NCBI GenBank assembly: GCA_043228905.1
Contig: JBHGNT010000007.1
Location: 1,612,001 to 1,676,000, forward strand
Reading direction: 5' to 3'
DNA length: 64,000 nt
DNA from: Azolla caroliniana
Taxonomy: Eukaryota > Plantae > Polypodiophyta
Position 1 is the first letter of the stretch; every line of letters starts with the position of its first letter. Under the pieces are notes generated by a model, which saw only the letters and a list, made by a program, of their open reading frames with translations, ran no database searches and was not told the origin of the DNA. Position numbers and translations under genes: made by a program. This document shows, in pieces, positions 1-51,020 of the stretch.

Positions 1-416
1 GACGTGTTCCTCCCCTTCCTAGGGCTCTCAACCCACGCCATGAAGTCCCGCTTCGACAGTCGAAGCGAATCATCGTACCCGTACTTCTCGAGGAGCCGTC
101 CCTCGAGCTCCACCCAAGCCTGGCATCCGGCCAGCACCTCGAGCACCTCCGCGTGGATGCTCGGCGTCACCGCTCGAGGGAATCCGGACAGCCGCCTGTC
201 CTTAGGGATATCCCTCATGATCATTTCGGCCCGATAGGCCTCCAAGTAGCTCGTGGCATTCTTCCCACCGAATCGGCCTATGGTGCCAACAATCAATTCT
301 ATGGCCCTATCAAGGGCACCCGTTCCCTCACGAGCATTTCACTAGCCGATCGACGGCTACTGCCATAGCTTCAGCAAGCTCGGATCCCCTCATCTTCAAC
401 TCCTTTGCCGCCTTCG

Positions 417-434
417 TTCACGTCGGGTTCACCA
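417..434 (-). promoter_or_regulatory. Primer binding site complementary to the tRNA-Trp 3' end
   Basis: The plus strand reads TTCACGTCGGGTTCACCA, the 3' end of plant cytosolic tRNA-Trp including CCA. It lies 5 nt from the LTR. Confidence 0.85.
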
Positions 435-439
435 AATGA

Positions 440-540
440 TGTCGTGTTGTTACGCTCTTGCGTGTGAAATGAGGCGGGACCGCGGGGGCCCTGATCCAAG
501 GAGCATGAGAAAGAAGAGGGAGAGCGATTCACAGAAACAC

Positions 541-581
<41 letters not shown>

Positions 582-1046
582 CGGGAACAAAAGATTCAAT
601 TATGATGTCAACAACGATTACAACCGGCAAACCGGAAACAGACCCAAAATGGTGGTCCCACACACACACAAGGACGACACAGAGAACGCACGGTGGAGCC
701 TCTACTAGAAGCAAACGGGCCCACATGCAGCAGAGGCAACCGACACAAAAACTTAGCGGAGAGCAACGGTTGAGGAGGAGAGAGCTTGGTCCCCACTCCG
801 ACAGCAGTTCGTCCTCGCCAAAACACGATATCCATATTCTTCTTCTCCCTTCCCTTTTATAGGTCGCCGAGGAGACCGTTACATCAAAACATATCAACTT
901 TATTCTCTGTCCAAAAGGACAGAGATACGCATCGATTCCCTAGACAATTAATACCCTTCCTAGTACATATGTACATCAGCCGATCTATTCCTAGCTATGT
1001 ACAATTCATAAACACACACGCGCGCGAAAAGGATTGGGTCACGACT
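440..1046 (-). repeat. 5' LTR of gypsy element A (~607 bp)
   Basis: Termini TGTCGTG... (440) and ...GTCACGAC(t) (1046, terminal A apparently mutated). Minus-strand TATA (cttttatagg near 853). Adjacent to the PBS. Confidence 0.75.
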
Positions 1047-1117
1047 CTTCCCCTTGATTCCTCCTAGGGGCAGTTTTCTCCACGTTGGGTGGAAACAAGG
1101 CGGCAGAGGAATCGAGG

Positions 1118-3270
1118 ATGAGGGGATCAGAGCTCGCTGAAGCCATGGTGGCAGTAGTCGATCAGATAGTAAGTGTTCGCGAGGGCATGGGCGCCCTCGA
1201 TAGGGCCATTGAAGCAATTGTCGGCACAATAGGCTGGTTCAATGGGAAGGACGCCACAAGTTATTTGGTGGCCTACCGAGCCGAAATGGTGATGAGAGAC
1301 ATCCCAGAAGAAAGGCATTTGGTTGGGTTCCCTAGGGTGGCGACACCGCAGAGGTGCTCGAGGTGCAGGCTGGATGCCGGACCTGGGGAGAATTCGAAGC
1401 GCGGCTCCTCGAACGGTACGGGCTTGATGACATGCTTTGGTTATCGAAGCGGGACTTCATGGATTGGGTAGAGACCCCCGGAAAGGGGATGAATACGTCG
1501 GCGCTTCTCTGGGAGTTTGAGGAACGCTTCGCGCAGCTCTCGGCACTGGACAAAGCAATGTTGGACACGAGCCACGTCTTGTTGTTTGTCAAGTCCATGG
1601 ACGCGCGGGATCGAGATCAGGTGGGTCTCCTGTTGGAGACGGATGACGGACTGACGGCCGACTGGGCCGTGGTAAAGAGAGTCTGCGGCCGTTTTGACAA
1701 ACGGCATGAGTGGGTGACAAGGGCTCATCGGGGGCAGGAGCGGTTGTGGCAAGAAAGCTCGAAGGACCCCCGCCGGCGCGAAGGGAGGAAACCCGGGATT
1801 GGCCTAAGACAGGCTCGACTTTGACCAACGTGGTCAAGGGCCCGTCTAGAGGAGAAGCTTTGGAAGAGCTGACACAGATGGTACGAGACCTCCAGATTGC
1901 ATAGGCAAGGAGGGATGGCGGCGAGCAGTTTCGCGACCGGAGGCCTCCGGGTGGGCATTGGTGCTTGTGGTGTGACGCGGTCAGTCACATCCGGAAGGAC
2001 TCTGTGGACTTCGCAAAAGCGATAAGGGCTAACGTGGTGTACCTGTGGAACAGGCTGGTGCATGCAAGCAAGGCCCGGAGAGCCCTGGAGCTAAATATCG
2101 GACGAGGAGGGATGAAAAGGCTGATGGAAGAAGCGGCAACGCGCCATGCGGAGACCATCCACTACTCGGCGTCAGCAGGAATCCGGGTCGGGAGTGACGA
2201 AGGCCGGAGGACGAAGGATTCCTGGTTCTGGCCGTTAGTGCTAGAAGGCCTCACCGGCGTGCGGTTGAGGAAGGAGGAAGCGGACCGCACAAAAAGACAT
2301 GTTCGGGAGGTCACCAGGTGGAGCAATCCGGTCGAGGAAAAGACCGGCTTCATGGAAACCGCATGCCAAAACTACGAGGTTCTAGTAGAAGACAAGCGTG
2401 CAGGAAAAGCCGGAGGGGCCGGACCCTCCCAACGGTATGAGACCCGGTTTGGGCCGAAGCAGAATGATGCCGGTAACCCCGGCGCATCCGATAGAACGAG
2501 ACGGGCCGGTTATCGGCTGAGCACGGAGATTGAGAGGACGACGGACCTGCGGGAGGTCCTCGAGGATCGGATTCTCGACAGCAAGGTGGAGCTATCGTTG
2601 AGGGAGGTGCTCGGGATCACCAAGAAGGAGTTCCACGATTCCATCATGCACTTGGTGAAGCGTAAACGGCTCTCAACGGAGCCAGAGCCGGAGAAGCCGG
2701 TGGAGGTGTGAACGGAGCCAGAGCCGGAGAAGCCGGTGGAGGTGTGAACGACGCACCTGGAGGACGTGGCCCTAGAAGACGAGTTAGCGGAGAGCCACTA
2801 TTCGAAGTTGCACTAGGCAAGGGCTACTACATAAACCCCCGTTCGGGTTGGGGACGTCCAGGAGCCGGTAGTGGCGTTGATCGACCACGAGTTAGAGATG
2901 AACCTGATGTCTATGGACTTCTACAAGAAGGGCAAGTGGCCGATCGACACCAAGCACGGGTGGAAAATACGAGCGGCGACGCGCGCCACGGAGGAGCTAC
3001 ACGGGGCCTGCCCAAATGTACGGGTGAAAATTGGTGATGTTAAGATTGACCAACACTTCTTCGTGTAGGAGACATCCTCACACCCGGTGATACTCGGAGA
3101 ACCAAACATTACGGCACCACGCATGGAGACAAAGGTGCTAGATAACGGTTCGGCGTATGCATGCGTGAAGAGCCAGGTTGGCCGACACTCCATCCAATTT
3201 TTGACGGTGCGACCGAACCACGAGCGCAACCACGAGGCCCTCTGTGGCAAAAGCCGAGGGGATTTTTACA
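1118..3270 (+). pseudogene. gag-protease region of element B, with frameshifts and stops
   Basis: ORF fragments 1085-1471, 1354-1824, 1965-2711, 2871-3068 and 3087-3338 join into gag, a CxxC knuckle remnant, a LEDRILDSKVELSLREVLGI segment and an aspartic protease. Confidence 0.8.
2675..2746 (+). repeat. 36-bp perfect tandem duplication in gag
   Basis: AACGGAGCCAGAGCCGGAGAAGCCGGTGGAGGTGTG occurs twice. Confidence 0.9.
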
Positions 3271-3414: not shown

Positions 3415-4059
3415 TGTCGCGAAGATTCGCGCGTGCGTGTGCTACTCGAGCGACCACCGGGGTCTTGGACTAGGGAGGATGTTCGCAGAATTATCGAAGA
3501 GATGACGATCAATGTAAGATTAGATGAAATTTGTTCACTTGAGAAGAAGAAAGATTGTACACTTGAGAAGTAGAAAAATATGAAGAAGATAAAGACAAAC
3601 ATAATTAAATTGACGATAGTTGTGTTGGTGATATCACATATTGAGCCCCCCTTACACAAGCCCAACTAGAGGCTTTTATAGGTCTTTCCATGCTTGTGAC
3701 ATGCACAAAACCATGGGCTAAAACCATGGTTTTGTGCACACAGTTTTGCTTATGTCATGCACAAACCATGGGTTTAGAACCATGGTTTTGTGCACATGGT
3801 TTTCGAATGGTTGTTTCATCTATAATTCATATATGAAAAGTAAATACATAAAATCTACACTATATAATAGTTGGCCTAGTGGTAAGGCAAACATCTTGTA
3901 TCTTAGAGGTGCAAGGTTCAAACCTTCTTTGCACCCCTCTGTATGAACTCAAGTGCCACTAGGCCTTAGGCTTATTTGTTAAGTGTATGTGCAATGTTGC
4001 ACATCCTTGGTTTATTCGTCTCACTCGATTTCACACCGTAGCCGAAAATCGTCACGACA
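3415..4059 (-). repeat. 3' LTR of the gag-only element
   Basis: TGTCGCGAAG...GTCACGACA, with about 10 substitutions versus 6283-6927 counted by eye. Confidence 0.95.
3872..3926 (+). promoter_or_regulatory. tRNA-like Pol III A-box/B-box module inside the LTR (second copy at about 6740-6794 with a mutated A box)
   Basis: A box TGGCCTAGTGG with D-stem GCCT/AGGC. B box GGTTCAAACC at 3915, 43 nt downstream. Acceptor and anticodon stems are not recognisable. Confidence 0.6.
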
Positions 4060-5626
4060 TCCACCCCCACCAAACCCGCACATCCTCCGGTATGTGCCGC
4101 GAAAGGTGAAGAGGTGAGATCTTTAGCAACAGTGATCAACCGAGTTCCTCCGCACTCTCGTCGACCTCGTCTAACTTCGTCTTCCACTTCGAGTATGCCC
4201 AATCTTTCTAACCGAACCATCGTAGCCACCCGATCCACCATATCCGACGCTCACACCTTCTTCCCTGGTCGGTTGTAGTAGATCTACCGAACAATGTCGT
4301 CGATCCGACCGCTCTTCCTTCGTCCACCGCGTGCGTCCTTCGATTGGACTCTTGGCCACTCCTCACGCTCACCATCTTCAACTGGGGGTTGTGGATCGTT
4401 CGTGTCGATCTCCTATTAGGCCGGGTTTGCCCTTGTCCGGATTGGTGTCCGCCGATCGTTTCTCGGCTCGGTTGGCGTTCGTCTCCATTCGCATTTCGCT
4501 GAGTCGGGCTCGACCGATTGATTCCTACTGGGTCGGCCCCCTTTTGGATCGGGATTGTCCGATCGATTTCGGCCGAATCAGGTTTCGGCCGGGTCGGCCC
4601 CGGTCGATCGGCTCCCATGTGGATCTTCCTTTGTTCGGGCCGGAATCTTGGCCAGATCGTCTTTCGGTTCGACCGGTTCTTGACTCTTCCTTCCTTCCCG
4701 CATGCCGCCTCTCCATTGAACTCAACCGCGGCTTCATCCTTGGCCTCCTCGTCATCCACATCCTTCCCTCCGTGTATGCTCACCTCGAGCCATATTGTCT
4801 CCTCTCCGCCACCTCCTTTATCTTTGGTCTTATGTCGACACACGGTCTCGACTGCCGAAGTCTTCAAAACCAGTGTGAAGGAATCCCTTCGTTCATGCAC
4901 ATTTACCTTGTCTTCCTCATCGCCCTTCCGGTCGTCCGCTTTTCCGTCCACACATTCCGTCTCTCCGGTCTCACGTTGGCTCACTCTGTAGAATAGGTGT
5001 GGGGATATCCTTTCGTCCTCGATCTTCTTCCTCCTTGTGTTGGGCCTTCGTCTTCCCGTCACCACCTTCCGTCTCTCCCGTCTCACATTGGCACAATAAC
5101 ACAACCGCCGAAGTCTCTGGAACAAGTGTGGAGAAAGTCTCGACATGGCTATCCGCCATCGACTCGTCCATAGCCACCTCCGACTCGATGTCGTTTGTCA
5201 TGGTTACCTCCTCAATCACATCGGACTCAAACACTTTATCTCCCTTGATCATGCAAGCTTTTCTCATGCTTACACCTTCATCACCCGACGTTTCGTACAT
5301 AATGCGTGTTACGAAACATTTATCCTCCCTTGAAGTGGCGTTCGCCGTCCTCGAGTCATCGGCCTCCTCATTGGCCGTCGTTTCTTCATAAGACAAGAAG
5401 GTGACTTGTTTCGCACCTTCTCTCTCGGTACCATCATACCGAACCTGAGCCTTTGTATCGGCCACTTCATTAACCCGCATTTGTTGGGAGGTCTCTTGTT
5501 CCTCGATCACCATTCGCCTCGGTTTTGTCTCCCTTTTAAGCTTCATTTCTTTTGTTGGTGGCGCATTGCTGCATCTCGTCCCTCTTCAATCGTCCCTCAT
5601 GGGTCGTCTTGTTGTCGTCGATATTC

Positions 5627-6238
5627 TCACTCGCCCCTTATCGTGTAGTCGGATACACTTTCCACTTTGCTCCAATCCTCAATGAGGCCATTTGCATCGT
5701 CATCTTCTTCAAGTTTGAGGCCGATGGACATCCTTTCCATTCGATCGATTGACTTCACGAACATAAGGACCTTATCGACCCCCACCAATCTTTGTTCCCG
5801 CTCCGAGAGTTGAGAAAAACGATGCTCGAAGTCTACGAATGCTTGTGTCGCGCCTTGGTGGGTCTTCGCTGATGTCACCCATTGGTCGAAGTTGCGTCGA
5901 TCTCGTCCTTTCAGTCTCTCATAGCCATATTCCTCCAATAAAGCCTTCTCGAAAGTCGCCCACGAATCATGAGCTTCTAGAAGCTCTTTTACATCTTTGA
6001 AGATCGGTTGAGACACCACCCAACAAAAGTACTCCAGCCTCATAGCTTCGTCCACACCTCTTGAATCCATCTCCGCATTGTAGAGTTTTAGAAAACTTTG
6101 GACTTCGGCGCCGTTGAAATAGCTCACTCGCTCAACTACCCTCTCGACGGCTTGTTGGGCTTCATTTCGTCTTTTCCCTTCTCCTAGAAACTCCATCATC
6201 CTTTTTGACATTGCCTCCATGAGATATTCGCCATCCAT
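5627..6238 (-). CDS. Retrotransposon gag-like protein, continuing after a frameshift into an acidic low-complexity region (to about 4700)
   Basis: YFNGAEVQSFLKLYNAEM...FEHRFSQLS...VLMFVKSID aligns with element B gag (FNGKDATSYL..., FEERFAQLS, VLLFVKSMD). Confidence 0.8.
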   Translation of the reverse strand: MDGEYLMEAMSKRMMEFLGEGKRRNEAQQAVERVVERVSYFNGAEVQSFLKLYNAEMDSRGVDEAMRLEYFCWVVSQPIFKDVKELLEAHDSWATFEKALLEEYGYERLKGRDRRNFDQWVTSAKTHQGATQAFVDFEHRFSQLSEREQRLVGVDKVLMFVKSIDRMERMSIGLKLEEDDDANGLIEDWSKVESVSDYTIRGE

Positions 6239-6259
6239 CTTCGTCCTCCCCTGTTGCTC

Positions 6260-6277
6260 TTCACGTCGGGTTCACCA
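6260..6277 (-). promoter_or_regulatory. PBS complementary to tRNA-Trp
   Basis: TTCACGTCGGGTTCACCA followed by AATGA and then the LTR, identical to 417-439. Confidence 0.85.
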
Positions 6278-6282
6278 AATGA

Positions 6283-6927
6283 TGTCGCGAAGATTCGCGC
6301 ATGCGTGTGCTACTCGAGCGACCACCGGGGTCTTGGACTAGGGAGGATGTTCGCAGAATTATCGAAGAGATGACGATCAATGTAAGATTAGATGAAATTT
6401 GTTCACTTGAGAAGAAGAAAGATTGTACACTTGAGAAGTAGAAAAATATGAAGATGATAAAGACAAACATAATTAAATTGACGATAATTGTGTTGGTGAT
6501 ATCACATATTGAGCCCCCCTTACACAAGCCCAACTAGAGGCTTTTATAGGTCTTTCCATGCTCGTGACATGCACAAAACCATGGGCTAAAACCATGGTTT
6601 TGTGCACACGGTTTTGCTTATGTCATGCACAAACCATGGGTTTAGAACCATGGTTTTGTGCACATGGTTTTCTAATGGTTGTTTCATCTATAATTCATAT
6701 ATGAAAAGTAAATACATAAAATTTACACTATATAATAGTTGTCCTAGAGGTAAGGCAAACATCTTGTATCTTAGAGGTGCAAGGTTCAAACCTTCTTTGC
6801 ACCCCTCTGTATGAACTCAAGTGCCACTAGGCCTTAGGCTTATTTGTTAAGTGTATGTGCAATGTTGCACATCCTTGGTTTATTCGTCTCACTCGATTTC
6901 ACACCGTAGCCAAAAATCGTCACGACA
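6283..6927 (-). repeat. 5' LTR of the gag-only element
   Basis: Direct repeat of 3415-4059, adjacent to the PBS. Confidence 0.95.
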
Positions 6928-12905: not shown

Positions 12906-13201
12906 TGTAGGGACAAACCCTACAGGAAGAGAGAGACAGAGAGGGAAGGAGAGAGAATGTACCTTTCACTCGATTTAGGGCTTCAAAATCTACCTTGCAT
13001 TTGAGGAACCGTGGGGCAAAGATTGTTGCGGATGAAAATGCTCATAACTTCTCATCACGCTAACGGAATTCAGTAAATGAACATTCTTTAGAAATCTCTC
13101 TAAAAGAGCTTTCCAACAAGCTATAGAACGTAGAAAACAATGGCCGGAGTGAACTTATAGAGAGCTTTGAGAGAGAGAGAGAGAGAGAATTTGAATCAAA
13201 C

Positions 13202-13936
13202 TGTTAGAACCAAGAGAAAAGATAGAGGGGTAGAAGAAAGATGTAAAGAGATCACGAGAAGAGAGGAATGAAGTGATAAGAGAAGAATGAATGTATTAGT
13301 AAGATAGAATGAAGATGGATACAAGAAAGGTGACGAAAGCTTAAGACTGGTGTTGATTTGAATTGGTTTGAGAAGAATTGTATGTCCATATTTATAGGTT
13401 CCTATAGAATAGCCTAGTGATTTATATAATGTTCTAGACCTAGAATATTCTAAGATGTTCTAGGATATTCTAAAATGTTCTAGAATGTTCCAGAACATTT
13501 ACAATAATCAATCTATTACAAGAAGTAGCTTTTATTATTTTATATAATTATATGTTATCCTAATGGTTAGGTTCTTGATTATGTATTACAAGGTCTTGGG
13601 TTCAAGCCCAAGTGAAGCCATGATGCTTATGTATTCATGACAAAGACTGGTTTGAGAGGGGAGGGAGGTTGAGTGGTGGCATTGGCAAAAGGAGGAGGGC
13701 TTTTCTTGAGCCAAAAGTTTTCCTCTGGCTAGGGTTTCTTCGAACGACGATTCCTTGAGGCATGAATTTCTTGAGCCAAAAGTTTTCCTCCACCTAGGGT
13801 TTCTTCGAACGACAATTCCTTGAGGCATGAATTTCCTTGGAAAAGATCATTCTCAAAAAGTGTTATTAGGGTTCCCATTCTTTAAAGCGATAATTTTGTA
13901 GCAAGTGCAACTTAGTCCTTTCATTTCATCGTGACA
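13202..13936 (-). repeat. Probable solo or remnant LTR containing a tRNA-like A/B-box module and a ~64-bp internal duplication
   Basis: TGTTAGAAC...ATCGTGACA. Minus-strand TATA (tatttatagg, 13389). TCTAGAA repeats. A box near 13556 and B box GGTTCAAGCC at 13599. Duplication at about 13703-13835. No TSD found. Confidence 0.55.
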
Positions 13937-15875
13937 TATGGACAATGGTTATATGTTACGATTATATCAAACTAATGAAATTATTGAAAATAAAGAATAA
14001 ATAAGTGAGGGCATTGTTCCTCCTGACCACCCAAAGCAAAGGATATGAGATGATCCCTAAATCATGGTGGTGTCCCTTACCACCGTATAAGGTCTTGAAG
14101 TGTACCTTGGCTTAGATTATATGATAGGCTCCTTGATATAAGAACTTCACCAAACCACCAAAGTCTCATTGAAGTCTCATAAAGGAGATGATAGAGCGAG
14201 GTAGCTAGTTCCATATTTATATCTTAAGCCAAAGGCCCCATTGGCTACCCTAAACCTTATAAAGTTAAGGGAGTCATTTATCATTAATCAAAATATCATA
14301 TTGTGTCTTGTCCATGATTTCAACCAACTAATAAATGAAGAGCTTGAGATCAAAAGTGAGCCTTAGCTTATGGGAGTGTGCTATGATGATATGATGAGAA
14401 TTAGGGAAATACTAGGAAAAGTTGGACGCAATGAATGAATTACATATGCCACTTCGAGATGGTGTGGCAAAAATGACATCGCAACTTATGTGGTACCAAG
14501 GCCTAGTGTTTGCTAGAAGATGGAACTAAAATAAACCCACTGGTATCTTTGCCCGCTTCAAGTTGTTTATTGAAAGCCAATGGCCATCAAAGCTCATGTA
14601 CACATATGAAGAGACCATCGATGTCACCTCTATAATCAAGGCAAAAAAAGCTTTGGCATCCTAATGGCTCTAATCCATGACCCAACTATGTGTCTTATTT
14701 TCATGGTGATTGCATCATAGTTTATGTCCAATAGCTCAAGAGTCACGTGAATGAGTTATTATTCTAGTACAAAAGGGACATGTTTGCTACTTTTGAAGTG
14801 ACGAAGACCAATCTGCAACAATGGTTGTCTAGTCTCCAAGAAAAAATAATGATGCCAATATTTGGTGGACTTTAAGGAAATTCTTCTTGAAGAGAAATCC
14901 CCCTAGTGTGAGATGATTAATCAACTACAATTAGCCAAAATAAATCTAAACAAGAATGGGTAGGGGATACAAAGAAACTTTAGTTATTTCAAGCATATCA
15001 AGAAAGGAGGCCTACTTTCTACATATAGCAGTAATAGTCAATATGAGGGAACGTATTGAACAAGCCTACCATGAGTTGGCGTTGAATATGACCAATGTGG
15101 TTTATACGCTTGTGTACAAATGAAAACAAGAAGTTAGTGGCCACATAGAAGCCCTTCAAAAGATTATTCCCTTTCCTCTCAAAATTGTTAAATCGATCTC
15201 GTTCGGCCCCATTTTTTGACGGTTTACCCCTGCCCATTTTGTTTGACGATTTTGTAGCGGTTGTGCCTACCTTGAGGATGCCAAGCCCACCATCAATTAT
15301 CACCAATATCTACTAAACCATTGTAAAAGAATCTAAGCTTAAGGACAAAAATTTTGAACACATCATTGCACACAATACTATGACTACAAATCTCAGTTAA
15401 CAAGGTACAAATGGAAGTAGAGAATACATTGTAAAATGCATGTTGTTCATTAACATTTTCTCTCTTGGTGTTACAACTTGTGTACATGGTTTTTATGATA
15501 GATCATGTAATTTTACTTCTAAGCTACCCTACTTAATGTTTATAACGTTGGACCTTCCTAAAAAATGTCACATTCCGATTACATGTTCTCTAATTGTAAT
15601 CTAGGTTGATTTCATAACCATGTACATATTACAAAAGTGGTGTTGATTAAAATATTCAAGTTTTTATTGGAGAAACAACAATAACATTTAATAAGATGAT
15701 AAAATTGGAATAATAAGATTGCAATGTTGATCACTTAAGAGTGATAGTTGGGGATTGTGAAGGGCTTGCAATTCAAGCCCAACAAACCTAAGGATTGTCT
15801 AGCACTTAATTGTTTCTACCCCATGTTGTAGGTCTACCTAAACAAACATAAGTCCGTAGAAGGGATCAAGTACCC

Positions 15876-18158: not shown

Positions 18159-18650
18159 TCATGGTGAAGAAGCATGATTAAGGAGGATTTGTTCTAAGCT
18201 ATGGATGTAAGTAGTAAAGATGGAAGAAAGGGAGGAAACGAAATCATGTTCTGAGAGAATATGAGGCATAGGGTCTACTTCAAAGGACCAATGGATCCAA
18301 GAAGCATTAGAGGAAGTACTAGAAGTGACATGAAATGTGGCCAAATAGTTATAGAGATGGAGGTGTGGGAATCTTGTGTTTGCACTTTGTTCGATGATCG
18401 AATAAGAATATGAATGGTTTTGGGGATCGATCGAAATTAGCTTCTCTTTTGCCCAGAAAATTGATGTTCCCCTATATGATGTGCATCGACGCACACACCC
18501 TACTTCTTGTGGATTGCCTTCCACCACCTCACATGTCTTGATGTTGCCTCCGGTCCATTTATGCATATTGCAAAAATCACTTGCTACCCTCCATACCTCT
18601 TCTACACTTGACTTCACCTCTATCTTCACTGAACCTACCCACTTCATCAT
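18159..18650 (-). CDS. SRPBCC/START-like polyketide cyclase/dehydrase family protein (lachrymatory-factor-synthase-like), 163 aa, intronless
   Basis: KWVGSVKIEVKSSVEEVWRVASDFCNMHKW...CEVVEG...GCVR...WAKEKLISIDPQNHSYSYSI...IHWSFEVDP is the typical plant Polyketide_cyc2/LFS-like pattern. The ORF is clean. Confidence 0.88.
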   Translation of the reverse strand: MMKWVGSVKIEVKSSVEEVWRVASDFCNMHKWTGGNIKTCEVVEGNPQEVGCVRRCTSYRGTSIFWAKEKLISIDPQNHSYSYSIIEQSANTRFPHLHLYNYLATFHVTSSTSSNASWIHWSFEVDPMPHILSEHDFVSSLSSIFTTYIHSLEQILLNHASSP

Positions 18651-19779
18651 AGTGATTTATTCTCCTTTGCCACTTGATCTTTACTGTATTGTTGCTTTCT
18701 TCTACTTCTCACCCGCATTTATGAGTGGGGTGTGCTCCACAAATGATCAAGATTCAATTGCAGTGATGTTGAAACTTGATAACACAAAGGCGTATCATAC
18801 ATTTCCCACTACACATACTTATAACTCTAGATATGTCCTAGGGAAAATATGGTAAAAAACAATTTGTGGTGGTAACACATTAAAAGTGTATAAACATATA
18901 TTTCGTAAAATTATATATACATTCTTGTTTGAAAAGTAATTCTCAATCCTACGAAAAGAGAATCAATTAAATATCACTTCTCTCCTCTCCTCTCTTTGTT
19001 CGTCTCACATTGAGTGAACTTTAAGGCCAAAATGAACCAAGGATTATGTGTGAAGCAAAGAAACTTAATACATCATCATCTCTCTAAATTAGAGTAAGTA
19101 ATAGATTTCGAAAGGTTATAACTAATAAAAGATTCCAAGTGAAAGTGATGAAAAAATGCCATATCATTATCTCTCAAAGCACACATTTCCTCTTTATTTG
19201 CCTACCACGATATGGTTTCTGGTTTATCGATCAATAGAAAATAATATCGTACAAAGGCATGTCAAACATCTTTTCATTTCCCCCAAATTAGTGAAAACAG
19301 TAATTTCTCACGGCTATTAAGGAAGTTGGATGGCATGGTCTTGTGAAACTCGGATGCACAAACAAGGAACGAAGGCCAACAAAAAAACATTAGGGGCATT
19401 AGGAATTATTAAGGCAATATCCTCATCCCATGTTATCGTGATGCTTTATCACCATTAGTTTGCAACATTTTTTGCATTCTCAATTGGGTAACATTTCATC
19501 TAAAAGGAAGTTTTTGAGATCATACTAAGATTTCTACCTTTACAAACTAGAAAATCTTGCACATTGTGCACTAAGGACTTCTTGAAAATGCTTCAATAGA
19601 ACTTGAATTATTGGCTCGAGATCATTAACCAAAGTAAACAATTGAATCAAAACATTACTACTTCCATAGAAATATCAATGACCTCCAAAATACCAAACAA
19701 ATTTCAAACATAAAATTTTTTCATAGTAGTATTGTCTACATATCTTTAGTTACCTACGTACATAATACAAATAGCATAT

Positions 19780-22869: not shown

Positions 22870-22914
<45 letters not shown>

Positions 22915-22915
<1 letters not shown>

Positions 22916-22977
22916 AGTTAGTAAGGTTGCCCAATGGAGACCAGGTGGTCATGGGTTCAACCCCTACATTCCACAAT

Positions 22978-23019
<42 letters not shown>

Positions 23020-23102
23020 GGCTAGTTGGATGTAGCTCAGTTGGTAAGTTGTCCAATGGAGACCAGTTGGTCATGGCTTCAACCCCTACATTCCACAGTG
23101 GC
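22915..23102 (+). mobile_element. Two tRNA-derived SINE-like units (22915-22980, 23021-23102), separated and flanked by (GA)n
   Basis: A box TAGCTCAGTTGGTAAG, B box GGTTCAACCCC, shared tail CTACATTCCACA(A/G)TGGC. Confidence 0.7.
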
Positions 23103-23936
23103 AGAGAGAGAGAGACCAACTTACCACTAGGGTAAGCAAATTACCCAAGCTTTATGTTGGTTATTTAGATTAATTCAAAAAGATGAAGAAAAGCTTTAGC
23201 TTCTCATTAGGTTATCCCATTGTGTATAGTTTTCATATCATGCTTAATCTTTGTTATATTTCTCGAATAAGTTGTGTGTGCATCATATACACGAACATAG
23301 AAATGTAGGGCACATTTTTATACTTAAATATAAAGTAAAGGGCAATTTGAGGTTGAAAGCATGAGAGGAAGTGTGGTCGTTAATGAGGGTAGATTATGTC
23401 AAAGGAACACACTCACGTATATAAATGCAAATCCACATGACATGAATAGTGTGTGAAACACAACTTTGCTAACACATGGATACTGTGAATCCATGCGATA
23501 CAACATATTGTCTAATATCTACCATATGAAGATTACTGAAATATGATAACATTATCCATATGACATATAACACATTCCAAATCATGTCGTTTCTTAAGCC
23601 ACATGCCATATCTCTATATACTGAATTCGCAACATCTCAAATTCCAAATAGTTGACAAAACCATCTTAACCATCAAGACAGTCATTCTAGTATTCTTTAT
23701 ATCATTCCAATTGTATCGTATATGTCCTCATGCTCCCACACACATCCTCTTCACTCATTATCTTCACAATGACTAGAACTTGGCTTAACAAAATGTTATT
23801 AATATCATAAGACAATTTTGACATCAATTTCACCTTAGAATGAATCAAAATAAGATACAAAATCAAAAAATTGAAGAGAAGTGTGTAAAAGTAGTATACA
23901 CACAATTATTATTAAATGGGCATCATAAATTAGACA

Positions 23937-24044: not shown

Positions 24045-26377
24045 CTTCACAACAAATAGATTAGTTGAATAAACAAGGAAATATTCAACAACGGGGTTGG
24101 TTTAAAGTGATGATTAATAGACATAGAGTTGCTTGATTGATTATTTCACTAAGCTTTTCTACATTCCTTTGTCCAAATACATTGAATGAAATTTGACAAT
24201 TAATAGAACCCTTACCTAGGTTCCTTAAGCTCCCTCACAATATTCACAAAACAAAAGCCAAAATAGACAACTATGGATAACGGACTACAAAAGCAAACAA
24301 TGATTGATGAAAATGTTTCATCCATTATGAATAAATGCTAACCAACCATAGGCTCAAAATGGTAAGCCCAAAAGGTAGGAAAAGAAGATTAATGTGCTAT
24401 TTTATTATATGCTTTGATGCAAGTGTATCTTTTTGAAATGGGCGACTTTGCATCGGACAAATATTGTGTGTGTTGTTTTGAATCTAAAGAGTGTGAGGCA
24501 CATGTTTTTTGATGGGTAAGGTTTCCTCGTAAGATATTGACAAAAATACTTGCTTTATGGAAACAATTGTCATAAGAATCTATACATGCCTACCGCAAAT
24601 TTGAGAAGGCAACAATATTATGACCATGTTCTAAGTTGCAAAAGAATATGATGCATTATAAAATATAACATAATTTAACAACTTACTAGATGTACTATTC
24701 CTGTACCTAATAAATCAAGTTTCCTTTTCATACATGAAACAAAAAAATTGTGCAAACGGAGGATATCTTTCTTTTGGATTTCCTCACCTTTTGTTTATGT
24801 TCCATATCAACCAAGCTAAACAATTCAAGTGGCATTTTCCTAAAAACCAAAGGTACGTAAATGGAAAGAGAACATTGAAGTTTCCTATTTTATGAAAAAT
24901 GATCAAAATGTTACAATCTACTTTTCCACAGTTACTGAAAATGCCACACTTTTTGACACGACTCCCAAAATAAATAAAATGCAGTGGTGTCATAATTAGA
25001 TCTAATTGTAATCATTATTACTAATGACCTTGAGATTAGTAATAGTTACATTATCACATGCTAGTTACTCTTGTAACTACAATAATTCAAATATAACACT
25101 AATCATGTCATGCCCATCACGAATCACTCCAAGAACAATAGTAATTGAATCATTAATCACATTATTTAATCGCATGCAATTGTATTTGACAACACAGAAT
25201 TGAATTGATGCATAATTAACCTACAGTGAAAACAAGCAAGTTTATCTAACTACATCTTTCCTCGGAGTAAATCAATGAACTTTGTAAATAAGATTTAGGC
25301 ACGTGAGGTATATCTACTTTTTGACTATGCATATTAGGCTCGATAGTGTAAAATTACCACGCACACGACCAAAATAAAACATTAAATTTTTATTTTCGGG
25401 AAAAGATAAATGATAGTCATAGAACATAGATGTATATTGTGAGTCACAAGAAAAGTCTCACATAGTCATATCAAGTTTCAACAATATTCTTTACTACAAA
25501 TGAAAATTGTGGGTCCCAAAATGTCCATCCTATCTTAATATTCTAGATGAAGGTTTCATGAATGTGTACATAATTCATTATGTAGATATCAAGGTTAAAC
25601 ACATTCAAACAAAGTAAATATGTGGACACTCAGATCTAAAGAGTCTAGACTCCTCAATAAATTTGAAGTTATTCAAGCCCACCCTATTGCTAGCATTCAA
25701 GACAATGTTGTCATCATTCACCAAAAGTTGACAATACTAGTTGAGTTCACAATAGGAAATAATGCTCTCCACTTAACGACCTTAGCAATTATGATGCAAT
25801 TATGATGTTCTTTACTTTAAAATGTGGAAAAGAAGTTGTTCCATTGATTACGAACAAAGTTCTTAACACTTGCATATACCTAACTTAGGATGTGGGGAGA
25901 TTTGGGTTCCAAAACCCATGGGTACACAAAGTCATCCTCGTCATCGACCAACTATTGATGTCATAACAACTTAGAACATTCTTACGATTGTTAACATATT
26001 GCATATTTGATTATGGTTGGAAATCCCTAAATATAATATTATAACCTTGTCCAACTTTTCACTTCACTTATAAAAAAGTTGTAGTTCAAGAGATATATTT
26101 CAAAGATTCACAATTCCAATCTAAGTTAAAACTCTACGGCATTTCAATGCTCTCATGTTGATCCATATATTGTTCACCTCTAGTTAACATTCTCACAAGA
26201 AGATCTAAGGAAAGGCTAACTTGTGCCTTCATATGATACTATATGTTCAAGCATTGAGTACTTACAACATTTGGATTAGTTCATAACACTAGTAGATGAA
26301 TGCAAAATCTCCAGTTGATTTAATCAAACATTTGAACTAATTATTAAAAGATAGAATTGACAATGGGAAAGCCTTAC

Positions 26378-26791
26378 CTTTCCATGGATGGAATGGAAAC
26401 TGCTATCCCCAATAGTGGTGAGGCTAGCATTGGAGATCTCAATGCTACATTTGTGAAGAAGCTTAAGGACCCCTGTCCACACACCTTTTCTCCTTGGAAT
26501 GTTGAGTGTGATGAAGACATTGGCACGGGAAAACCTCACAGTGACCTCAACCATCACTTCACCACCTACTTGCTTCGTAGCTGTTTCATGAGTACCTTCC
26601 ATAATATATGTCACATTGCAATTGTGAGTCCTCTCTTGTGTATTGAGTTCGTGGTTTGATTTGGTTGATACTATTTCTATCCCTAGGAGTGCCAATGTAT
26701 CTAGCTTCTTTTGCTCCAGCTCCTTGAGCACTCCACGAAGCGATTTTATGTATGTGATCACCTCAGTCAAGACAGTGATCCTATCGAGGTG
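26378..26791 (-). CDS. bHLH gene exon 2 (helix 2, coiled coil, ACT-like domain)
   Basis: Acceptor ACAG|CACCTCGAT and donor AAG|GTAAGG, 414 nt. HLDRITVLTEVITYIKSL...LKELEQKK...VFITLNIPRRKGVWTGVLKLLHK. Confidence 0.88.
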
Positions 26792-26825
26792 CTGTCATTC
26801 ACAATGACAATTTTAAAAAGAAATG

Positions 26826-26850
26826 GAGGGGGGGGGGGGGGGGGGGGGGG
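26826..26850. repeat. Poly-G run (poly-C on the gene's sense strand) near the exon 2 acceptor
   Basis: More than 20 consecutive G. Confidence 0.9.
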
Positions 26851-27473
26851 TTAAATAAATGAGGATATAAATCAAAGTAAACCATTAAAAACAATTTGGA
26901 TATATCCAAATAGAAATAGGAGTTTTTAGGCAACAATTAATAAATAAATGAAATTTATCATTGAAAGAAGTCTTGAGAGACAAATTTCCCCACTATTATT
27001 TCAAGAAAATTATGGATGTATAACACCTAAAGATTTATGACATGAATAATTATCGAGGTAAAGACCTTCAGCTAGAAGCTCATAATGTTGACAATACATA
27101 GGGAAAAACATGAGAAGTAGGGGTATTTTCGCAAGATAAAAGTCATCAAAGGAAGGGGGTAATGTCAAAAACATATACCAAAACTCTAAAGTCATGATAG
27201 AGATTTGAAACCATGACCTCTGAATCAATGAGAATGTTTAACTAATATCTAGATTCCCACCATGTGGTGGACAATGTAGATAAGGAGACATAAGGGAAAC
27301 TTAACGTGTTCCTTGTACATAGTTAGAAAATGTTAGGGTTGTTAATGTTGGATGTCAAAGAGAAACTCTGAGGGAAAATAGTGTATGCATCGCCTCACAT
27401 ATATTTGACATGCCTTTAGCTAACTAAACACGATTTATAAATTTTACTAACATGGGTTCTTATAGGGAACTAG

Positions 27474-27607
27474 TTTTTTTTTTTTTCCCAAAATGAAGCT
27501 ACTTTCCCATTAGTTACGAAGGATTATTACAAAGAGACTGTACAAGGAGGCTTAAACATAGATCGGGGAATCTCCCTCCAATCAAGTTCAAGAAAATGAG
27601 ACTAGTT
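27474..27607 (-). mobile_element. Short L1 3'-end insertion with poly(A) and imperfect TSD in bHLH intron 1
   Basis: Reverse complement of about 54667-54790. Flanked by TATAGGGAACTAG and TATAGGGGGCTAG. Confidence 0.85.
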
Positions 27608-29625: not shown

Positions 29626-29657
<32 letters not shown>

Positions 29658-39984: not shown

Positions 39985-40960
39985 CATGGTTGTTTACGTA
40001 CCTGTATTTAACGTTTAAATATGTATAGTACCTCATCATTTGTATAAAACGTACTATACCTCAATGTTGTTCAATCAAATATCATGTACATTTGTCTAAT
40101 ACAGTATTTAACGTATTTATAAAAAAACAGGTGTAATACGTATTTATAAAGAAAATGTAAGTAAAACCCTAACAAAAAGCAAAAGGAAAAAAAATATTTT
40201 AGTGAAAAAGAAGCCAAGGGAAGGAAGGAAGAAGAATAGAAGAGACGACGATGAAGAAGATGAAGAAGAAGAAGAAGAAGAAGAAGAGAGAAAAGAAGAC
40301 ATAAATCTGTCCTGAGTGTGATAATCGCCGAAGATAGAAGAAGAAGAAGAAGAAAACGAAGAAAAGAGAAACCTATCACGAGTGTGATAGTCGTAGACGA
40401 TTCCTCAATTTATGAAGGCATAATTGTAAATAATTACAATTTGAAGTAGAACATCGTGATACACACTTACACTGATTTATAGAATAAGGGAAAGTCGACA
40501 TCCATATTACTACAATTATTTAAGGATGTGAAATGTTCAAATGTCTTATATGCATTTTAGGATGTAGAACTATATTGTATATCACAAAATTGTGTAAACA
40601 TAGATGTTTTTTACAATATTATAGATATTTTTTAGAAAGGTAAATAATTTTCAAATTCTAGAAGTATCTAACGTACTATACGTAAAATAAATATTTTACG
40701 TATTTTATAAGTATTTAACATATTAAGAAAATGTATTTAACATATTTTTTAATTGAGAGGTACTATACGAGTATTAATACGTTGTCGTAGTGTATTTTGT
40801 ACACTACGTGAAAAACGTATATAGTATTAGATTCAATAAAAAATGAAGAAATAGAAGAAAATAGCAAAATAAATGGAACATGCATAGGGCAAGATTCGAA
40901 CCTTGCACCTCCATGTTAATAATGTAATGTCTTACCATTACACTAGCATTTCATTAGTGT
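39985..40960. mobile_element. Possible abutting CACTA-type termini with TATAGTAC/TATTTAACG subterminal repeats
   Basis: ...GTTGTCGTAGTG ends at 40792 and CACTACGTGAAAAACG starts at 40802. Repeated cgtatttaa/gtactata motifs at 39995-40830. Confidence 0.35.
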
Positions 40961-47493: not shown

Positions 47494-50400
47494 GTTCTTG
47501 AGTTGGGTTGCTTCTAGCCTTCCTAGTGCCAAATCCAAGCCTTCTCTCCTTCTTTCAAGTTGTCTTATCTTTGTTGTCACAAGTTGTTCTCAGCTCATCT
47601 TATTCTCCCACAACATCACTCCTATGACGCAATCAACTCCTCGATGGACGGCACTGACTACATGAGTTTGGTTTGCATGAACCTTGTCACCAAATTGTGG
47701 GTGGTTTTATTAGACCACGAGACATAAAGCAATAACCAGGGCCAATCTCTAACTCGTCCTTTCTAGGCTCTAACAATAGCTTTTAGTACAAGCCTATGCC
47801 CACACTCTATCTTCAAGTTGGCATTTGGGTTATAAGCAGTTGAGGAGAGTTGTACTCCTAGTCATTCAAAGATCTCTGTAGCTTCATGACCATTCAACTT
47901 TCCTTGTTGGTCATTATCTTCCCCACGGAACTGAATCGGTAGATGATGTCTTTGAGCAAGAACTTACACACTGTCGCCATCTTTTTGTCCTCAAGGCTCT
48001 TTCTTCTACCTGGTTTGTGAGGTAGACTTCTCTTGCTAACACAAAGTACTTCCTTTGACCCACTCCCATCAGCATGGATACCAAGTCCACGTTCCATTTG
48101 AAGTGTATAGTAAATGGGTAGTTTTAGTGCAACTCATCTCTATGTCATACGATCTAATGTATTTGGCAGCTTTCACATGTCCCCACAAAATGGATGATAT
48201 TCTTGCATATTCTTGGCCAACAATACTTATCCTTTACCTTCTTGAAAGCTTCCCATGTTCCTCTATGGCCTACCCAAGAACCCTCTGGAATTCAAACACC
48301 AACATTGTTTGATACTCCTTTTTCGAATCACTGGCAGTGGTGTCCCTACCCTTTTCTTTGGGTGTTTCCTCTTTGTAAGAATTACTTTTGTGCTTTCTTG
48401 TGGATTCATTGTGTTTCCTCCTTCGTCCACAAAGTGTCTCTCATCATTGAGCTCAAGAACCTACCTATGTGTAGTCACTTCCCTTTCTATTTTCTTTCGT
48501 TGAAGGTGTTGAGCACTAGCACACATCATCCTTCCGTAGATGATTGGGCCATTTTAAGGAATTCGAGAGTGACATATTCATCTTCTTGAAGCCATGTCAC
48601 ATTCATCTTCATACCTCGTCGTTGTTAGCATGTCTTCCATGACATTGTTCTTTCCCAATATATGGAGGATTTCTAGGTTCATTGATTTGATGTATCTAAT
48701 CCACCTTAGTATGACTAAGTTTGGTGTTGCACACTTGATATCATCTCTAGGATTGGAAGGCAATCTGTGTCTATCATGATCTCTATCCCAATGAGGTAGT
48801 CTTTATCTACCTTCACCACAAAAACTATGCCACAAAGTTCCCTTTTCATTTAGGCATATCCTCATTGTCACTCACTGAGCACCTTTGCTCCGAATTTGAT
48901 GGTGTTACGACCACTATCTTCTCCCTCTTGGTTGATGACCCATTTGATCGCATCTGGACTCGTATCTACAGTCACGTAGATGGACATCCCTTCCTTGTAT
49001 ATGGCTTTTCTTAAAGTTGGTTTCGCTACCAACATTCCTTTCATCCTCTTCATCGCCTATGTGTGCTCGTCTCCCCATTTGAATTTCCTCCCTTTATTGA
49101 GTAAGCGTACAAGGGCTCAACTATGTGAGCGTAGTGGGAAATCCAAATGTGACAGAATGTAGATGCACCAAGAAATCACCTCATTTCCTTCTGCGATTTC
49201 CATTCTTCCTTCATTTCCCTGATTTATTTTGTCTATATGCCCCACACAAGTATGCTACCACAAGAATCTTTGATTAACTGAATGTCGACTTCTAAGATGA
49301 GAATGTTAGAAGTCTGTCTTGCAGTTGGCAACATGATCTGCCACGAAATGCTTGCACCCATCCTCATCCAAGGTATCTCTTTATCTGCTTTTTAATCTCC
49401 CTTTATTGGGATGTCATCAAGGAATGACATGGTGATGTTTGGGATGCAATCTTTCAATACCTTGTTCATTGCATTCACCATGTGGGCAACAGAGTTTGTG
49501 GCACCTTGTGGCAAGGTACACATGGGCACTAGGTTGATAGGGATTTGCATTGTCATGGTATCCCTGTTCTCCACGACTAGTTGGAATTAGTCATACCTTG
49601 AGTATAGGTTTCCAATTTAATATATTGACCGTCCGGAGAAAGCCTCGGCGAATTTATCGACACTTGGTTTGACTCCTGCATTACGAATTGTCACCTTATT
49701 GACAGGTTGCAAGTCCTAAATAAGGCTCAAGCTCTCATTATTCTTCAACATAGGTTCGAGGATTCTCATGTTGATTTTTTCTTTGATAATCTCAATGAGC
49801 TTAGGGATGTGAGCTCTTAACACTGGGATGGACTTGGTATCTCAGGGTATAGTGGTGCTGTGAATATCACAGCTAGTTCTATGATCATAGGTGTCATGTC
49901 ACGGACACACCAACCGCGGATTCGGACGAAGCACGGATGATGGGGCTAAGACCCTAGAACTTAAGAAGATGGGAACGACACAAGAGCATGAAGATAGAGA
50001 TGAAGAACGAGATAAGATAGAATGGAACAAGAATACTAGATTGATGTGTCAATGACTAGTGTTGAATCCCTTGAAAGGGATCAAGGAGGTTACAAATATT
50101 CATACAAGTTCTGAGATTGAATATCTCTAGAATATACTGATCTAGAATATACCATACAATAACTCTAGAATATACTAACGACTAGAATCAGAACTATACG
50201 CCAGACTATTGAATACTACAGCATTATACAAATGTATGATCATGTCAAAATGGTTGAGCATGACATCTTGTTGATGTGCGGTTGCAGGTTCAATCCTCAC
50301 CAACTATGTATTTGATGTCCGAGTCCGCGGTTGGTGTGTTCATGACAGTTTGAATCCCTTGAAAGGAACCAAGGAGGTTACAAGTATTTATACAAGTTCC

Positions 50401-51020
50401 GCGATTGAATATCTCTAGAATAATATACTAACGACTAGAATATTTTGATTCTGAAATATACTATACAAATGTATACTCATGTCAAAATGGTTGAGCATGA
50501 CATCTTGTTGTTGTTAGGTTGTAGGTTCAATCCTCACCAACTATGTATTTGATGTCATTGTGTCGTGACAGTAGGGTTCACACACCCTATCTTGTCTGGT
50601 TAAAACGTGAAAGCTCTTCCGTGGCTTTCGAGTAACTTCTAAACTTTGACTCCTCTGTGGGAAATAGGAAGCCACCTCCACTGATTCTGAGAATCCATCT
50701 TGTTTTGTTGGTGAACTATTGTCCTATGTCGTAGGGGGTCTCGTAAGAGAGGATCAGCTGCTACTCCCTTTATCCTTTTGCCAATTGTCGTCTGGCAAGG
50801 GATCAACCACTGGCTTCACCTTCTTGTCCACGATCTTGTACTTTGTGTGTACTTCAATTGTCCTCTCTTCTTCAATCATCCACCCAAGCACTTTTATAGT
50901 TGTATATATGTAAACTAAGTTGACCGGGATTACCTTGTGCTCAATAAGGCTTAAGGTGACTGCACTATTCATCTCCCCAAAGGCCCAATGTAATATTCCA
51001 ATTTTCACATTTCCGCATAA
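47494..51020 (-). mobile_element. Decayed Ty3/gypsy pol, same family as element B
   Basis: CTLPQGATNSVAHMVNAMNKVLKDCIPNITMSFLDDIPIKG (49392-49574), VTVDTSP (48868-49053) and TKYKIVDKKVKPV (50754-51008). Confidence 0.88.
49892..50570 (-). repeat. Compound solo-LTR-like insertion (inner unit 49897-50347 with ~31-bp terminal inverted repeats, plus a partial second unit)
   Basis: TGTCACGGACACACCAACCGCGGATTCGGAC ... GTCCGAGTCCGCGGTTGGTGTGTTCATGACA. Outer end TGTCGTGACA. TSD ATAGG/GTAGG, whose removal restores the host frame VNPTI. Confidence 0.75.

What the first reader, a model, noticed from the sequence alone, without database searches (positions are those of the whole stretch)
3866..3965. tRNA-mimic Pol III promoter module in the U3 of three different LTR families
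Seen: an A-box/B-box pair at tRNA spacing (43-44 nt) occurs in the LTRs at 3415/6283 (A 3872, B 3915), in the otherwise dissimilar LTR at 13202-13936 (A about 13556, B 13599) and in both units of 49892-50570 (A 50243, B 50287; B 50524). In every case it lies upstream of the LTR's Pol II TATA (3673, 13389, 50384; minus strand) and points the opposite way. D- and T-arm pairing is kept (GCCT/AGGC, AAGG/CCTT, CTTGGG/CCCAAG), while acceptor and anticodon stems are lost. Known: Cassandra TRIMs carry 5S rDNA Pol III boxes in their LTRs, and TFIIIC-bound B boxes act as chromatin barriers in yeast and mammals. Inference: these LTRs may carry a retained tRNA-type module serving as an anti-silencing insulator, a divergent Pol III promoter or a targeting mark, a tRNA analogue of Cassandra.
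Basis: partly seen in the sequence, partly recalled or inferred. Interest (0 to 1): 0.8.

Follow-up and report, generated by a model that had tools for sequence, protein, structure and literature searches.

The report
Backward tRNA promoter in plant LTRs
Three abundant families of plant jumping genes carry, as a fixed part of their end repeats, a trimmed tRNA-gene remnant that points away from the element's own promoter and keeps the core binding signal of the tRNA transcription factor TFIIIC, which would likely dock there and could help shield the element from silencing, although a functionless hitch-hiking relic is almost as likely.

Summary
The A/B-box pairs are real: 8 hits against 0.2 in shuffles, all in tRNA register. 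The module is a family trait, not a sporadic SINE. It lies in both LTRs of a gag-only Gypsy element (3415-6927) and in 2 of 3 long-enough relatives at about 72% identity. It is inside the repeated unit of LTR 13202-13642 in four species' contigs. It is antisense, upstream of the TATA and 33-134 nt from the LTR's outer end.

- The second LTR ends at 13642, not 13936.
- Perfect D-arm pairing is a minority allele.
- One family keeps an anticodon stem.
- Similar modules lie outside LTRs, and 6 of 10 LTR stretches lack a B box.

Only the B box beats flanking U3 (10/11, p about 0.02-0.05). The A box does not, and no terminator is conserved. Best reading: a captured tRNA-SINE head kept as a TFIIIC site (0.45), against a neutral relic (0.35). 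tRNA-bearing LTRs are known (Helenus; sense in the consensuses seen, short TRIMs), so this is a new variant. The scan noted Helenus-type and antisense internal tRNA relics in other genomes, but not this module.

The parts
3415..6927 (-). Family 1: non-autonomous, gag-only Ty3/Gypsy element nested in the pol region of a related Gypsy element; 4-bp TSD GCGT
   Evidence: LTRs 98.4% identical over 645 nt; flanks; full-length relatives hit only the gag part of the internal region; host RT and RNase H on the right, DUF4100 on the left
3415..4059 (-). Family 1, 3' LTR (645 nt)
   Evidence: PPT 4060-4072 adjoins it
3673..3682 (-). Pol II TATA motif of the 3' LTR
   Evidence: conserved in L002, L004, L005, L008
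3691..3803 (.). Array of CCATGG palindromes between TATA and module
   Evidence: D12
3804..3871 (+). AT-rich, fast-changing spacer upstream of the A box (84% AT in the last 50 nt); would be the TFIIIB landing side if Pol III assembles
   Evidence: TFIIIB role inferred
3872..3882 (+). A box (tRNA D loop); 5' half variable, 3' half kept
3872..3926 (+). tRNA-derived module, tRNA positions 8-63 in register (T33, AGGT variable loop), no acceptor stem
   Evidence: Rfam tRNA model positions 8-63, 13.2 bits, E 3.2, below the gathering score of 29; register table; alignment; ARAGORN finds no tRNA
3915..3925 (+). B box, core GTTCRANNC intact, 134 nt from the LTR's outer end
3926..3970 (+). Imperfect inverted copy of the module's 5' half (quasi-palindrome about the T loop)
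   Evidence: z=-3.3 in this copy only; z=-1.0 in the 5' LTR, -1.15 in L004, +0.99 in L005
5627..6271 (-). gag-like ORF (214 aa stop to stop)
6261..6277 (-). Primer-binding site (tRNA-Trp label recalled, not from a call)
   Evidence: same site at about 420-435 next to a related LTR that lacks the module
6283..6927 (-). Family 1, 5' LTR; module A 6740 / B 6783 on +, with two A-box differences from the 3' LTR
13202..13642 (-). Family 2 solo LTR (441 nt; no clear TSD; Copia-type PPT suggested in relatives)
   Evidence: the window's own Copia PPT at 46825 for comparison
13556..13609 (+). Family 2 module, B box ending 33 nt from the LTR's outer end
49892..50570 (-). Family 3 solo LTR with a tandemly repeated U3 part; TSD 4 of 5 (ATAGG/GTAGG); inside a Gypsy pol
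50243..50297 (+). Family 3 module, unit 1 (keeps an anticodon stem)
50480..50534 (+). Family 3 module, unit 2
40880..40945 (-). Homologue of the family 1 module outside any LTR I could recognise, followed by T runs
   Evidence: profile hit E 1.9e-6; 80% to L004 over 50 nt; T runs

Best explanation
Three high-copy LTR families carry a trimmed tRNA-gene remnant, antisense near the outer edge of U3 and upstream of the Pol II TATA, which was likely captured from a tRNA-derived SINE and is likely kept as a B-box docking site for TFIIIC rather than as an RNA gene. SHOWN: the tRNA register, the position, the orientation (family 1 firmly, family 2 well, family 3 by TATA only), fixation in families 1 and 2, an intact B-box core in 7 of 7 LTR-borne copies, a drifting A box, and no conserved terminator. 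INFERRED: (1) a SINE head entered U3 and was copied to both LTRs by reverse transcription; (2) body, tail and acceptor stem were lost while the B box stayed; (3) TFIIIC would bind between the host flank and the element's promoter and keep that promoter open or limit the spread of silencing, as at B-box-only ETC sites; (4) the outward direction would keep any Pol III from running through the Pol II promoter.
For: Excess over chance: 8 against 0.2. Present in both LTRs of one element and in L004 and L005 (LTRs 70-73% identical; gag more like the pol-bearing host's, 46% against 30-32%) at the same place and strand. B box 10/11 identical in three lineages against 203/352 of other U3 positions (p=0.021; ungapped p=0.047). 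The AT-rich stretch before the module keeps 34/68 and the stretch 3976-4020 keeps 12/45. In family 2, contigs with a different upstream spacer resume homology at the A box (loose end before 13556; joints 13469>13556 and 13510>13561), and the bin 13575-13600 is a local coverage peak in 4 of 4 runs. In family 1 the B-box bin is a local peak in 4 of 4 runs, and no variant row among the 40 of 86 shown lies in 3915-3926. No TSD of 7 nt or more flanks the module in families 1 and 2. Families 1 and 2 share no spacer similarity (9/30, p=0.38) or LTR similarity, yet have the same layout. The B box is the high-affinity TFIIIC site, and ETC sites have B boxes without TFIIIB or Pol III and act as barriers (PMC12409998, passages; yeast and animal data, 'plant' does not occur in that review).
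Against: No binding, chromatin or RNA data. The conservation signal is weak: three lineages, two of them (L004, L005) 256/258 identical in U5/R; 32 of 364 U3 11-mers are as conserved as the B box; the 20 nt after the B box are nearly as conserved (16/20), and coverage at 3975-4066 is as high as at the B box in organism D. The A box is no better kept than U3 (5/11 or 4/11). Copies outside LTRs keep the same invariant positions. 6 of 10 LTR stretches, including a related LTR with the same PBS (440-1047), have no core B box. L002, whose gag is closest to family 1 (62%), has other sequence after the palindrome array, with a weak tRNA-like motif on the opposite strand. Enrichment in LTRs is marginal (3 of 10 loci in 9.1% of bases, p=0.056). 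Families 1 and 3 share spacer sequence (17/30, p=0.0005 before correction for 78 pairs), so the three families may not be independent.
Confidence: 0.45

Rival explanations
1. Neutral hitch-hiker. tRNA-SINE heads are common in this genome; one landed in the U3 of an ancestor of each family and has been copied along. Sense insertions would be purged because they disturb the element's RNA or promoter, which leaves antisense ones.
For: At least 6 to 7 tRNA-like copies lie outside LTRs in 64 kb, and one is homologous to the family 1 module. The A box is not conserved and the B-box excess is weak. 6 of 10 LTR stretches lack the module and 1 of 3 long-enough relatives lacks it. Kojima reports that 'not a few' Repbase LTRs hold tRNA-like sequence (PMC10886601).
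Against: The B-box core is intact in 7 of 7 LTR-borne copies while U3 turns over around it. Only the promoter-bearing part remains. Homology restarts at the A box in family 2 variants. The same edge-of-U3 position recurs in LTRs with no other detectable similarity.
Confidence: 0.35
2. Active divergent Pol III gene making a small or hairpin RNA, like the Pol III microRNA cassettes in foamy virus LTRs, or making antisense RNA from the 3' LTR.
For: Correct A-B spacing and an AT-rich upstream stretch (68-86% AT). The 3872 copy folds into a long hairpin (z=-3.3). L004 and L005 have T runs 56-78 nt after the B box. Precedent in PMC3993851 (passages).
Against: None of the five window copies has a T4 run within about 90 nt of its B box; the first lie 616, 209, 91, 145 and 168 nt away, beyond the LTR unit that carries the box. 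The hairpin is not kept in the 5' LTR, L004 or L005 (z=-1.0, -1.15, +0.99). The A box drifts, including T8 in L004 and L005.
Confidence: 0.1
3. RNA-level role. On the genomic RNA the module reads as an anti-tRNA in U3 and pairs with the primer tRNA to aid priming or strand transfer, as with the bipartite PBS of Ty3.
For: The antisense-in-U3 geometry is that of the Ty3 3' PBS, which binds the T and D arms of the primer (PMC5371799, passages). A similar HIV-1 U3-R case exists (title seen only in a reference list).
Against: The primer's T-stem 3' strand read off the element's own PBS (CACGT) differs from the module's positions 61-65 (CTTCT), and module positions 49-53 cannot pair with it. Only the short universal loop motifs could pair. 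A related LTR with the same PBS lacks the module.
Confidence: 0.07
4. Helenus-type element: the tRNA boxes are the promoter for the element's own replicating RNA.
For: tRNA-like A and B boxes inside LTRs, without tRNA function, match the Helenus description.
Against: The module points away from PBS and gag, whereas the three Helenus LTR consensuses seen in the supplement excerpt carry it in the printed PBS-to-PPT direction. Family 1 is 3.5 kb with a gag ORF and a conserved Pol II TATA, against 311-1263 bp for Helenus.
Confidence: 0.03

Closest known systems
Helenus / TRIMp3 (Kojima 2024, PMC10886601; read parts 1-4 of 6 of the text, term passages, and one supplement excerpt)
   Same: tRNA-derived sequence with A and B boxes inside the LTRs; no functional tRNA; origin by SINE insertion proposed; solo LTRs and tandem arrays occur.
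   Different: Helenus are non-coding TRIMs of 311-1263 bp, and the module is in the element's direction in the consensuses I saw; the only plant case is Selaginella. Here the module is antisense, upstream of a conserved Pol II TATA, in 441-645 nt LTRs, of gag-bearing elements in family 1. Kojima analysed only hits under 1000 bp, so longer tRNA-bearing LTRs were set aside, not described.
Cassandra TRIMs (as summarised in PMC10886601; PMC10853983 and PMC12486564 seen as search listings only)
   Same: A Pol III promoter from a small-RNA gene sits in plant LTRs.
   Different: Cassandra is 5S-derived, has conserved promoter and terminator, and the promoter makes the element's RNA. Here it is tRNA-type, antisense, and has no conserved terminator.
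ETC (extra TFIIIC) sites and tRNA-gene barriers (PMC12409998, passages)
   Same: B box kept, A box weak, no Pol III product needed; proposed working model.
   Different: These are host chromosomal sites shown in yeast and animals, not carried by retrotransposon LTRs. Binding was not tested here, and I found no plant data in that review.
Pol III microRNA cassettes in foamy virus LTRs (PMC3993851, passages)
   Same: A and B boxes inside the LTR of a Pol II-driven retroelement.
   Different: These have terminators, hairpins and proven small RNAs. Here terminator and hairpin are not conserved.
Ty3 bipartite PBS (PMC5371799, passages)
   Same: tRNA-complementary sequence in U3 of the genomic RNA.
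   Different: It is specific for the primer tRNA. This module does not resemble the primer's T stem.

Membership tests
Helenus (TRIMp3) | tRNA-derived sequence with boxes A and B in the LTR | tested here: met
Helenus (TRIMp3) | Short non-coding TRIM (311-1263 bp) | tested here: not met
   Family 1 is 3513 nt with a gag-like ORF. Families 2 and 3 are solo LTRs, so their full length is unknown.
Helenus (TRIMp3) | Module oriented so that Pol III could make the element's RNA | tested here: not met
   Antisense to PBS, gag and PPT in family 1; antisense to TATA and PPT-like ends in family 2; antisense to TATA in family 3
Helenus (TRIMp3) | PBS, PPT and 4-5 bp TSD | tested here: met
   Family 1: PBS 6261-6277, PPT 4060-4072, 4-bp TSD
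Cassandra | 5S rRNA-derived domain in the LTR | tested here: not met
   No 5S hit in Rfam scans; the module is in tRNA register
Independent SINE insertion | Sporadic copy with own TSD, body and tail | tested here: not met
   Fixed in families 1 and 2; no TSD of 7 nt or more in these two. Fixation in family 3 was not tested beyond its two units.
Functional tRNA gene | Cloverleaf with acceptor stem above detection thresholds | tested here: not met
   ARAGORN 0 genes; Rfam 13.2 bits against gathering 29; no tRNA hit at 50243
ETC-like TFIIIC site | Conserved B box | tested here: met
   Core intact in 7 of 7 LTR-borne copies; 10/11 against U3 background, p=0.02-0.05
ETC-like TFIIIC site | TFIIIC bound without TFIIIB or Pol III; barrier activity | not testable with these tools
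   Needs ChIP and reporter assays
LTR-borne Pol III small-RNA cassette (foamy type) | Conserved terminator and hairpin | tested here: not met
LTR-borne Pol III small-RNA cassette (foamy type) | Small RNA detected | not testable with these tools
   Only contig data were available
Non-chromovirus Ty3/Gypsy (Phygy/Selgy side) | Placement in an RT tree with reference lineages | not tested
   Host RT's closest named relatives are Riccia sorocarpa proteins at up to 65% identity. Trp primers are listed for non-chromoviruses (PMC6317226, passages). No tree was built.

The most novel reading that the evidence does not exclude
Pol II-driven LTR retrotransposons of both Gypsy and Copia type in this plant group have repeatedly captured a tRNA promoter, turned outward at the outer edge of U3, and use host TFIIIC as a built-in chromatin barrier that protects their promoter from silencing at any insertion site, scattering thousands of TFIIIC sites through the genome.
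Probability: 0.2. Interest if true: 0.8.

Novelty: new variant of a known kind. Interest (0 to 1): 0.45.

Why it matters
If TFIIIC binds these sites, it would be a cis-acting anti-silencing device in plant LTR retrotransposons that borrows the tRNA machinery without using it to replicate. It would give a direct test of whether TFIIIC barriers, shown in yeast and animals, work in plants: module-bearing and module-free LTRs of one lineage sit side by side in the same genome. It could also bear on why some LTR families reach high copy number in large seed-free plant genomes. If neutral, it is still a note for annotation: tRNA-like fragments in long LTRs are not Helenus promoters.

Tried and rejected
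No genome is held, so no genome-wide census was possible.

RNA: no RNA holder was listed for 3415-6927. X19, marked 'RNA? probably DNA', was laid and treated as DNA. Contigs cannot show starts, strand or expression, so this says nothing on transcription.

Viral contigs: 0 hits for the PBS pattern, the gag alignment and a pol protein. Metagenome PBS scan: 5 of 9 loci were unrelated, GC-rich chance matches and were dropped; L008 ends at the TATA.

A conserved fold-back pre-miRNA was rejected. Primer-tRNA pairing was largely rejected. A 'core 12 positions' test gave 12/12 (p=0.004) or 11/12 (p=0.03), but two of the positions were picked after seeing the alignment, so I do not lean on it. Depth tables were used only for what is covered, not as copy numbers; variant and loose-end tables were cut (40 of 86 and 40 of 101 variant rows shown). 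The host plant was not identified: the Atlas was unavailable.

Literature: nine full-text searches showed, by title and abstract start, no paper on antisense tRNA-type boxes in U3 of plant coding-length LTR elements. Subscription journals and Repbase entries are not covered, and bioRxiv supplements are closed. The Culex cqgypsy_1 tRNA dimer lies at the PBS, not in U3 (PMC3286476, passages). Pol III targeting elements (PMC5911963, passages) insert next to tRNA genes and do not carry them; I found nothing for a targeting role here. The sugar beet preprint (10.64898/2026.03.01.708851, one passage) only cites Helenus.

Full report
Setting. The window is repeat-rich plant DNA with Gypsy, Copia and LINE remnants, a bHLH gene and a Bet v 1-type gene. 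No genome is held. The closest named relatives of the host Gypsy RT are liverwort (Riccia) proteins at up to 65% identity, with closer unnamed ones at up to 79%. 'Likely a fern' rests on other notes of this scan and my recall of such genomes, not on a test here.

The observation. With one mismatch in A and none in B there are 8 hits against 0.2 in 30 shuffles. The modules are in tRNA register. Rfam's tRNA model aligns 3872-3926 to positions 8-63, though weakly (13.2 bits, E 3.2), and finds no tRNA at 50243. Across ten copies the invariant columns are A14, G19, T33, G46, T47, G52, T54, T55, C56, A58 and C61 (tRNA numbering recalled). ARAGORN calls no tRNA.

Family 1. 3415-6927 is a minus-strand element with 645-nt LTRs differing at 10 positions, a PBS, a PPT, a 4-bp TSD and a gag-like ORF but no pol. 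It is nested in a related Gypsy pol. The module lies 190 nt upstream of the TATA, beyond a palindrome array and an AT-rich spacer, on the opposite strand, and ends 134 nt from the LTR's outer end. Contigs of 4 of 4 runs from three coded organisms cover all 30 bins of the LTR. The B-box bin is a local peak in each, but in organism D the outer 90 nt are as deep. 3874 is mostly T, so the perfect D stem of the 3872 copy is a minority form.

Relatives of family 1. A metagenome scan with the PBS junction gave 9 loci, 4 of them relatives. L004 and L005 have LTRs 70-73% identical to family 1 and a gag more like the pol-bearing host's (46% against 30-32%), and both keep the module at the same place and strand. 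L002, with the gag closest to family 1, switches to other sequence after the palindrome array. L008 is too short. Across family 1, L004 and L005 the B box is identical at 10 of 11 positions against 203 of 352 other U3 positions (p=0.021; 0.047 without gapped columns). The A box is identical at 5 or 4 of 11, and 32 of 364 U3 11-mers match the B box's score. L004 and L005 are 256/258 identical in U5/R but 266/344 in U3, so they are not independent lineages.

Family 2. Laying four runs (four coded organisms) on 13185-13955 shows that the repeat ends at 13642, so the B box ends 33 nt from the LTR's outer end. Loose ends there read as purine tracts on the minus strand, in one run like the window's own Copia PPT at 46825. 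This supports the antisense orientation and suggests, without proving, a Copia lineage. Contigs with other spacers rejoin at the A box, 13560 is usually T or G, and joints back from 13632-13642 show tandem copies of the module-bearing part. There is no clear TSD.

Family 3. 49892-50570 is a solo LTR with a duplicated U3 part and a 4-of-5 TSD inside a Gypsy pol. Its orientation rests on the TATA and GA-rich tract alone, and I had no call left to test it in other genomes. Its spacer resembles family 1 (17/30) while its layout resembles family 2 (local score 35 against a null maximum of 29). Families 1 and 2 show no similarity beyond the boxes.

Background. tRNA-like heads also occur outside LTRs: a SINE-like family with acceptor-stem complementarity among GA repeats (22954, 23033, 29684), a second family (29858, 30496, a fragment at 23129), and 40945, which is homologous to the family 1 module. 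They keep the same invariant positions. Of 10 LTR stretches in the window, 4 (three families) have a core B box and 6 have none, including a related LTR with the same PBS. The six were delimited by eye and two are incomplete. Enrichment in LTRs is marginal (p=0.056 by loci, 0.012 by families), and 3 of 3 antisense gives p=0.25.

How it likely works. No terminator is conserved, the long hairpin of the 3872 copy is not kept elsewhere, and the module does not resemble the primer's T stem. What persists is a B box at fixed spacing from a drifting A box. That is the make-up of ETC sites, which bind TFIIIC without TFIIIB or Pol III and act as barriers in yeast and animals (PMC12409998). I therefore put 0.45 on a captured SINE head kept as a TFIIIC site between host flank and Pol II promoter, 0.35 on a neutral relic, 0.10 on a real divergent Pol III RNA, 0.07 on an anti-tRNA role in the genomic RNA and 0.03 on a Helenus-type promoter. 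Binding, barrier activity and capture from a SINE are all inferred.

Comparison and novelty. A tRNA counterpart of Cassandra exists: Helenus (PMC10886601). Those are 311-1263 bp non-coding TRIMs, with the module in the element's direction in the consensuses I saw. Kojima notes that 'not a few' LTRs hold tRNA-like sequence but analysed only the short ones. The present case fails the size and orientation tests, so it is not Helenus. Pol III cassettes in foamy virus LTRs and the Ty3 bipartite PBS are the other precedents. Nine searches showed no description of antisense tRNA boxes in U3 of plant coding-length elements, within a library that lacks subscription journals and Repbase. Notes of this scan report Helenus-type LTRs and antisense internal tRNA relics in other genomes, and a tRNA-for-PPT swap in other Gypsy families of this genome; family 1 has an ordinary PPT. 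Verdict: real feature, new variant of a known kind, function open, interest 0.45.

Noticed in passing
window 13468-13495: A perfect four-unit heat-shock-element-like array (nTTCnnGAAnnTTCnnGAAn; motif recalled) about 80-100 nt upstream of the family 2 TATA. 2 matches at <=1 mismatch against 0.39 expected, 4 of 100 shuffles reach 2. TCTAGA repeats also lie at about 50125-50190 in family 3. These LTRs may be heat-inducible.
   Followed up: partly
window 49897-49927 and 50317-50347: Family 3 unit 1 has about 30-nt inverted terminal repeats, long for an LTR (read).
   Followed up: no
window 1-1500: Two related Gypsy gag regions diverge back to back around one LTR (440-1047, minus, same PBS as family 1); 1-414 is 75% like 1499-1097 inverted. 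Likely a rearranged nest. This LTR lacks the module.
   Followed up: partly
window 3415-6927: Gag-only element with a 4-bp TSD and a PBS set 5 nt from the LTR. Two further minus-strand ORFs (4971-5585, 4208-5197) have no Pfam hit. It shares its LTR type with elements carrying a different gag (L004, L005).
   Followed up: partly
window 22870-23140, 29630-29870, 30420-30510: Two tRNA-headed repeat families lodged next to (GA)n microsatellites. One also flanks the L005 LTR. Candidate undescribed SINEs.
   Followed up: partly
L002:1030-1110 (minus): A degenerate tRNA-like stretch with a canonical 5-bp T stem, in the element's own direction, where the antisense module would be. A separate insertion or a variant subfamily; one copy only.
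   Followed up: partly
L004 and L005: U5/R are 256/258 identical but U3 only 266/344, which suggests U3 swapping or very fast U3 turnover in this lineage.
   Followed up: partly
window 42237-42610: Dense array of GAAATTTC palindromes with strong fold-back potential, source of several spurious Rfam miRNA hits.
   Followed up: no
window 18159-18656 and 26324-29491: Host genes among the repeats: a Bet v 1/polyketide-cyclase-type gene and a split bHLH gene, both minus strand.
   Followed up: no
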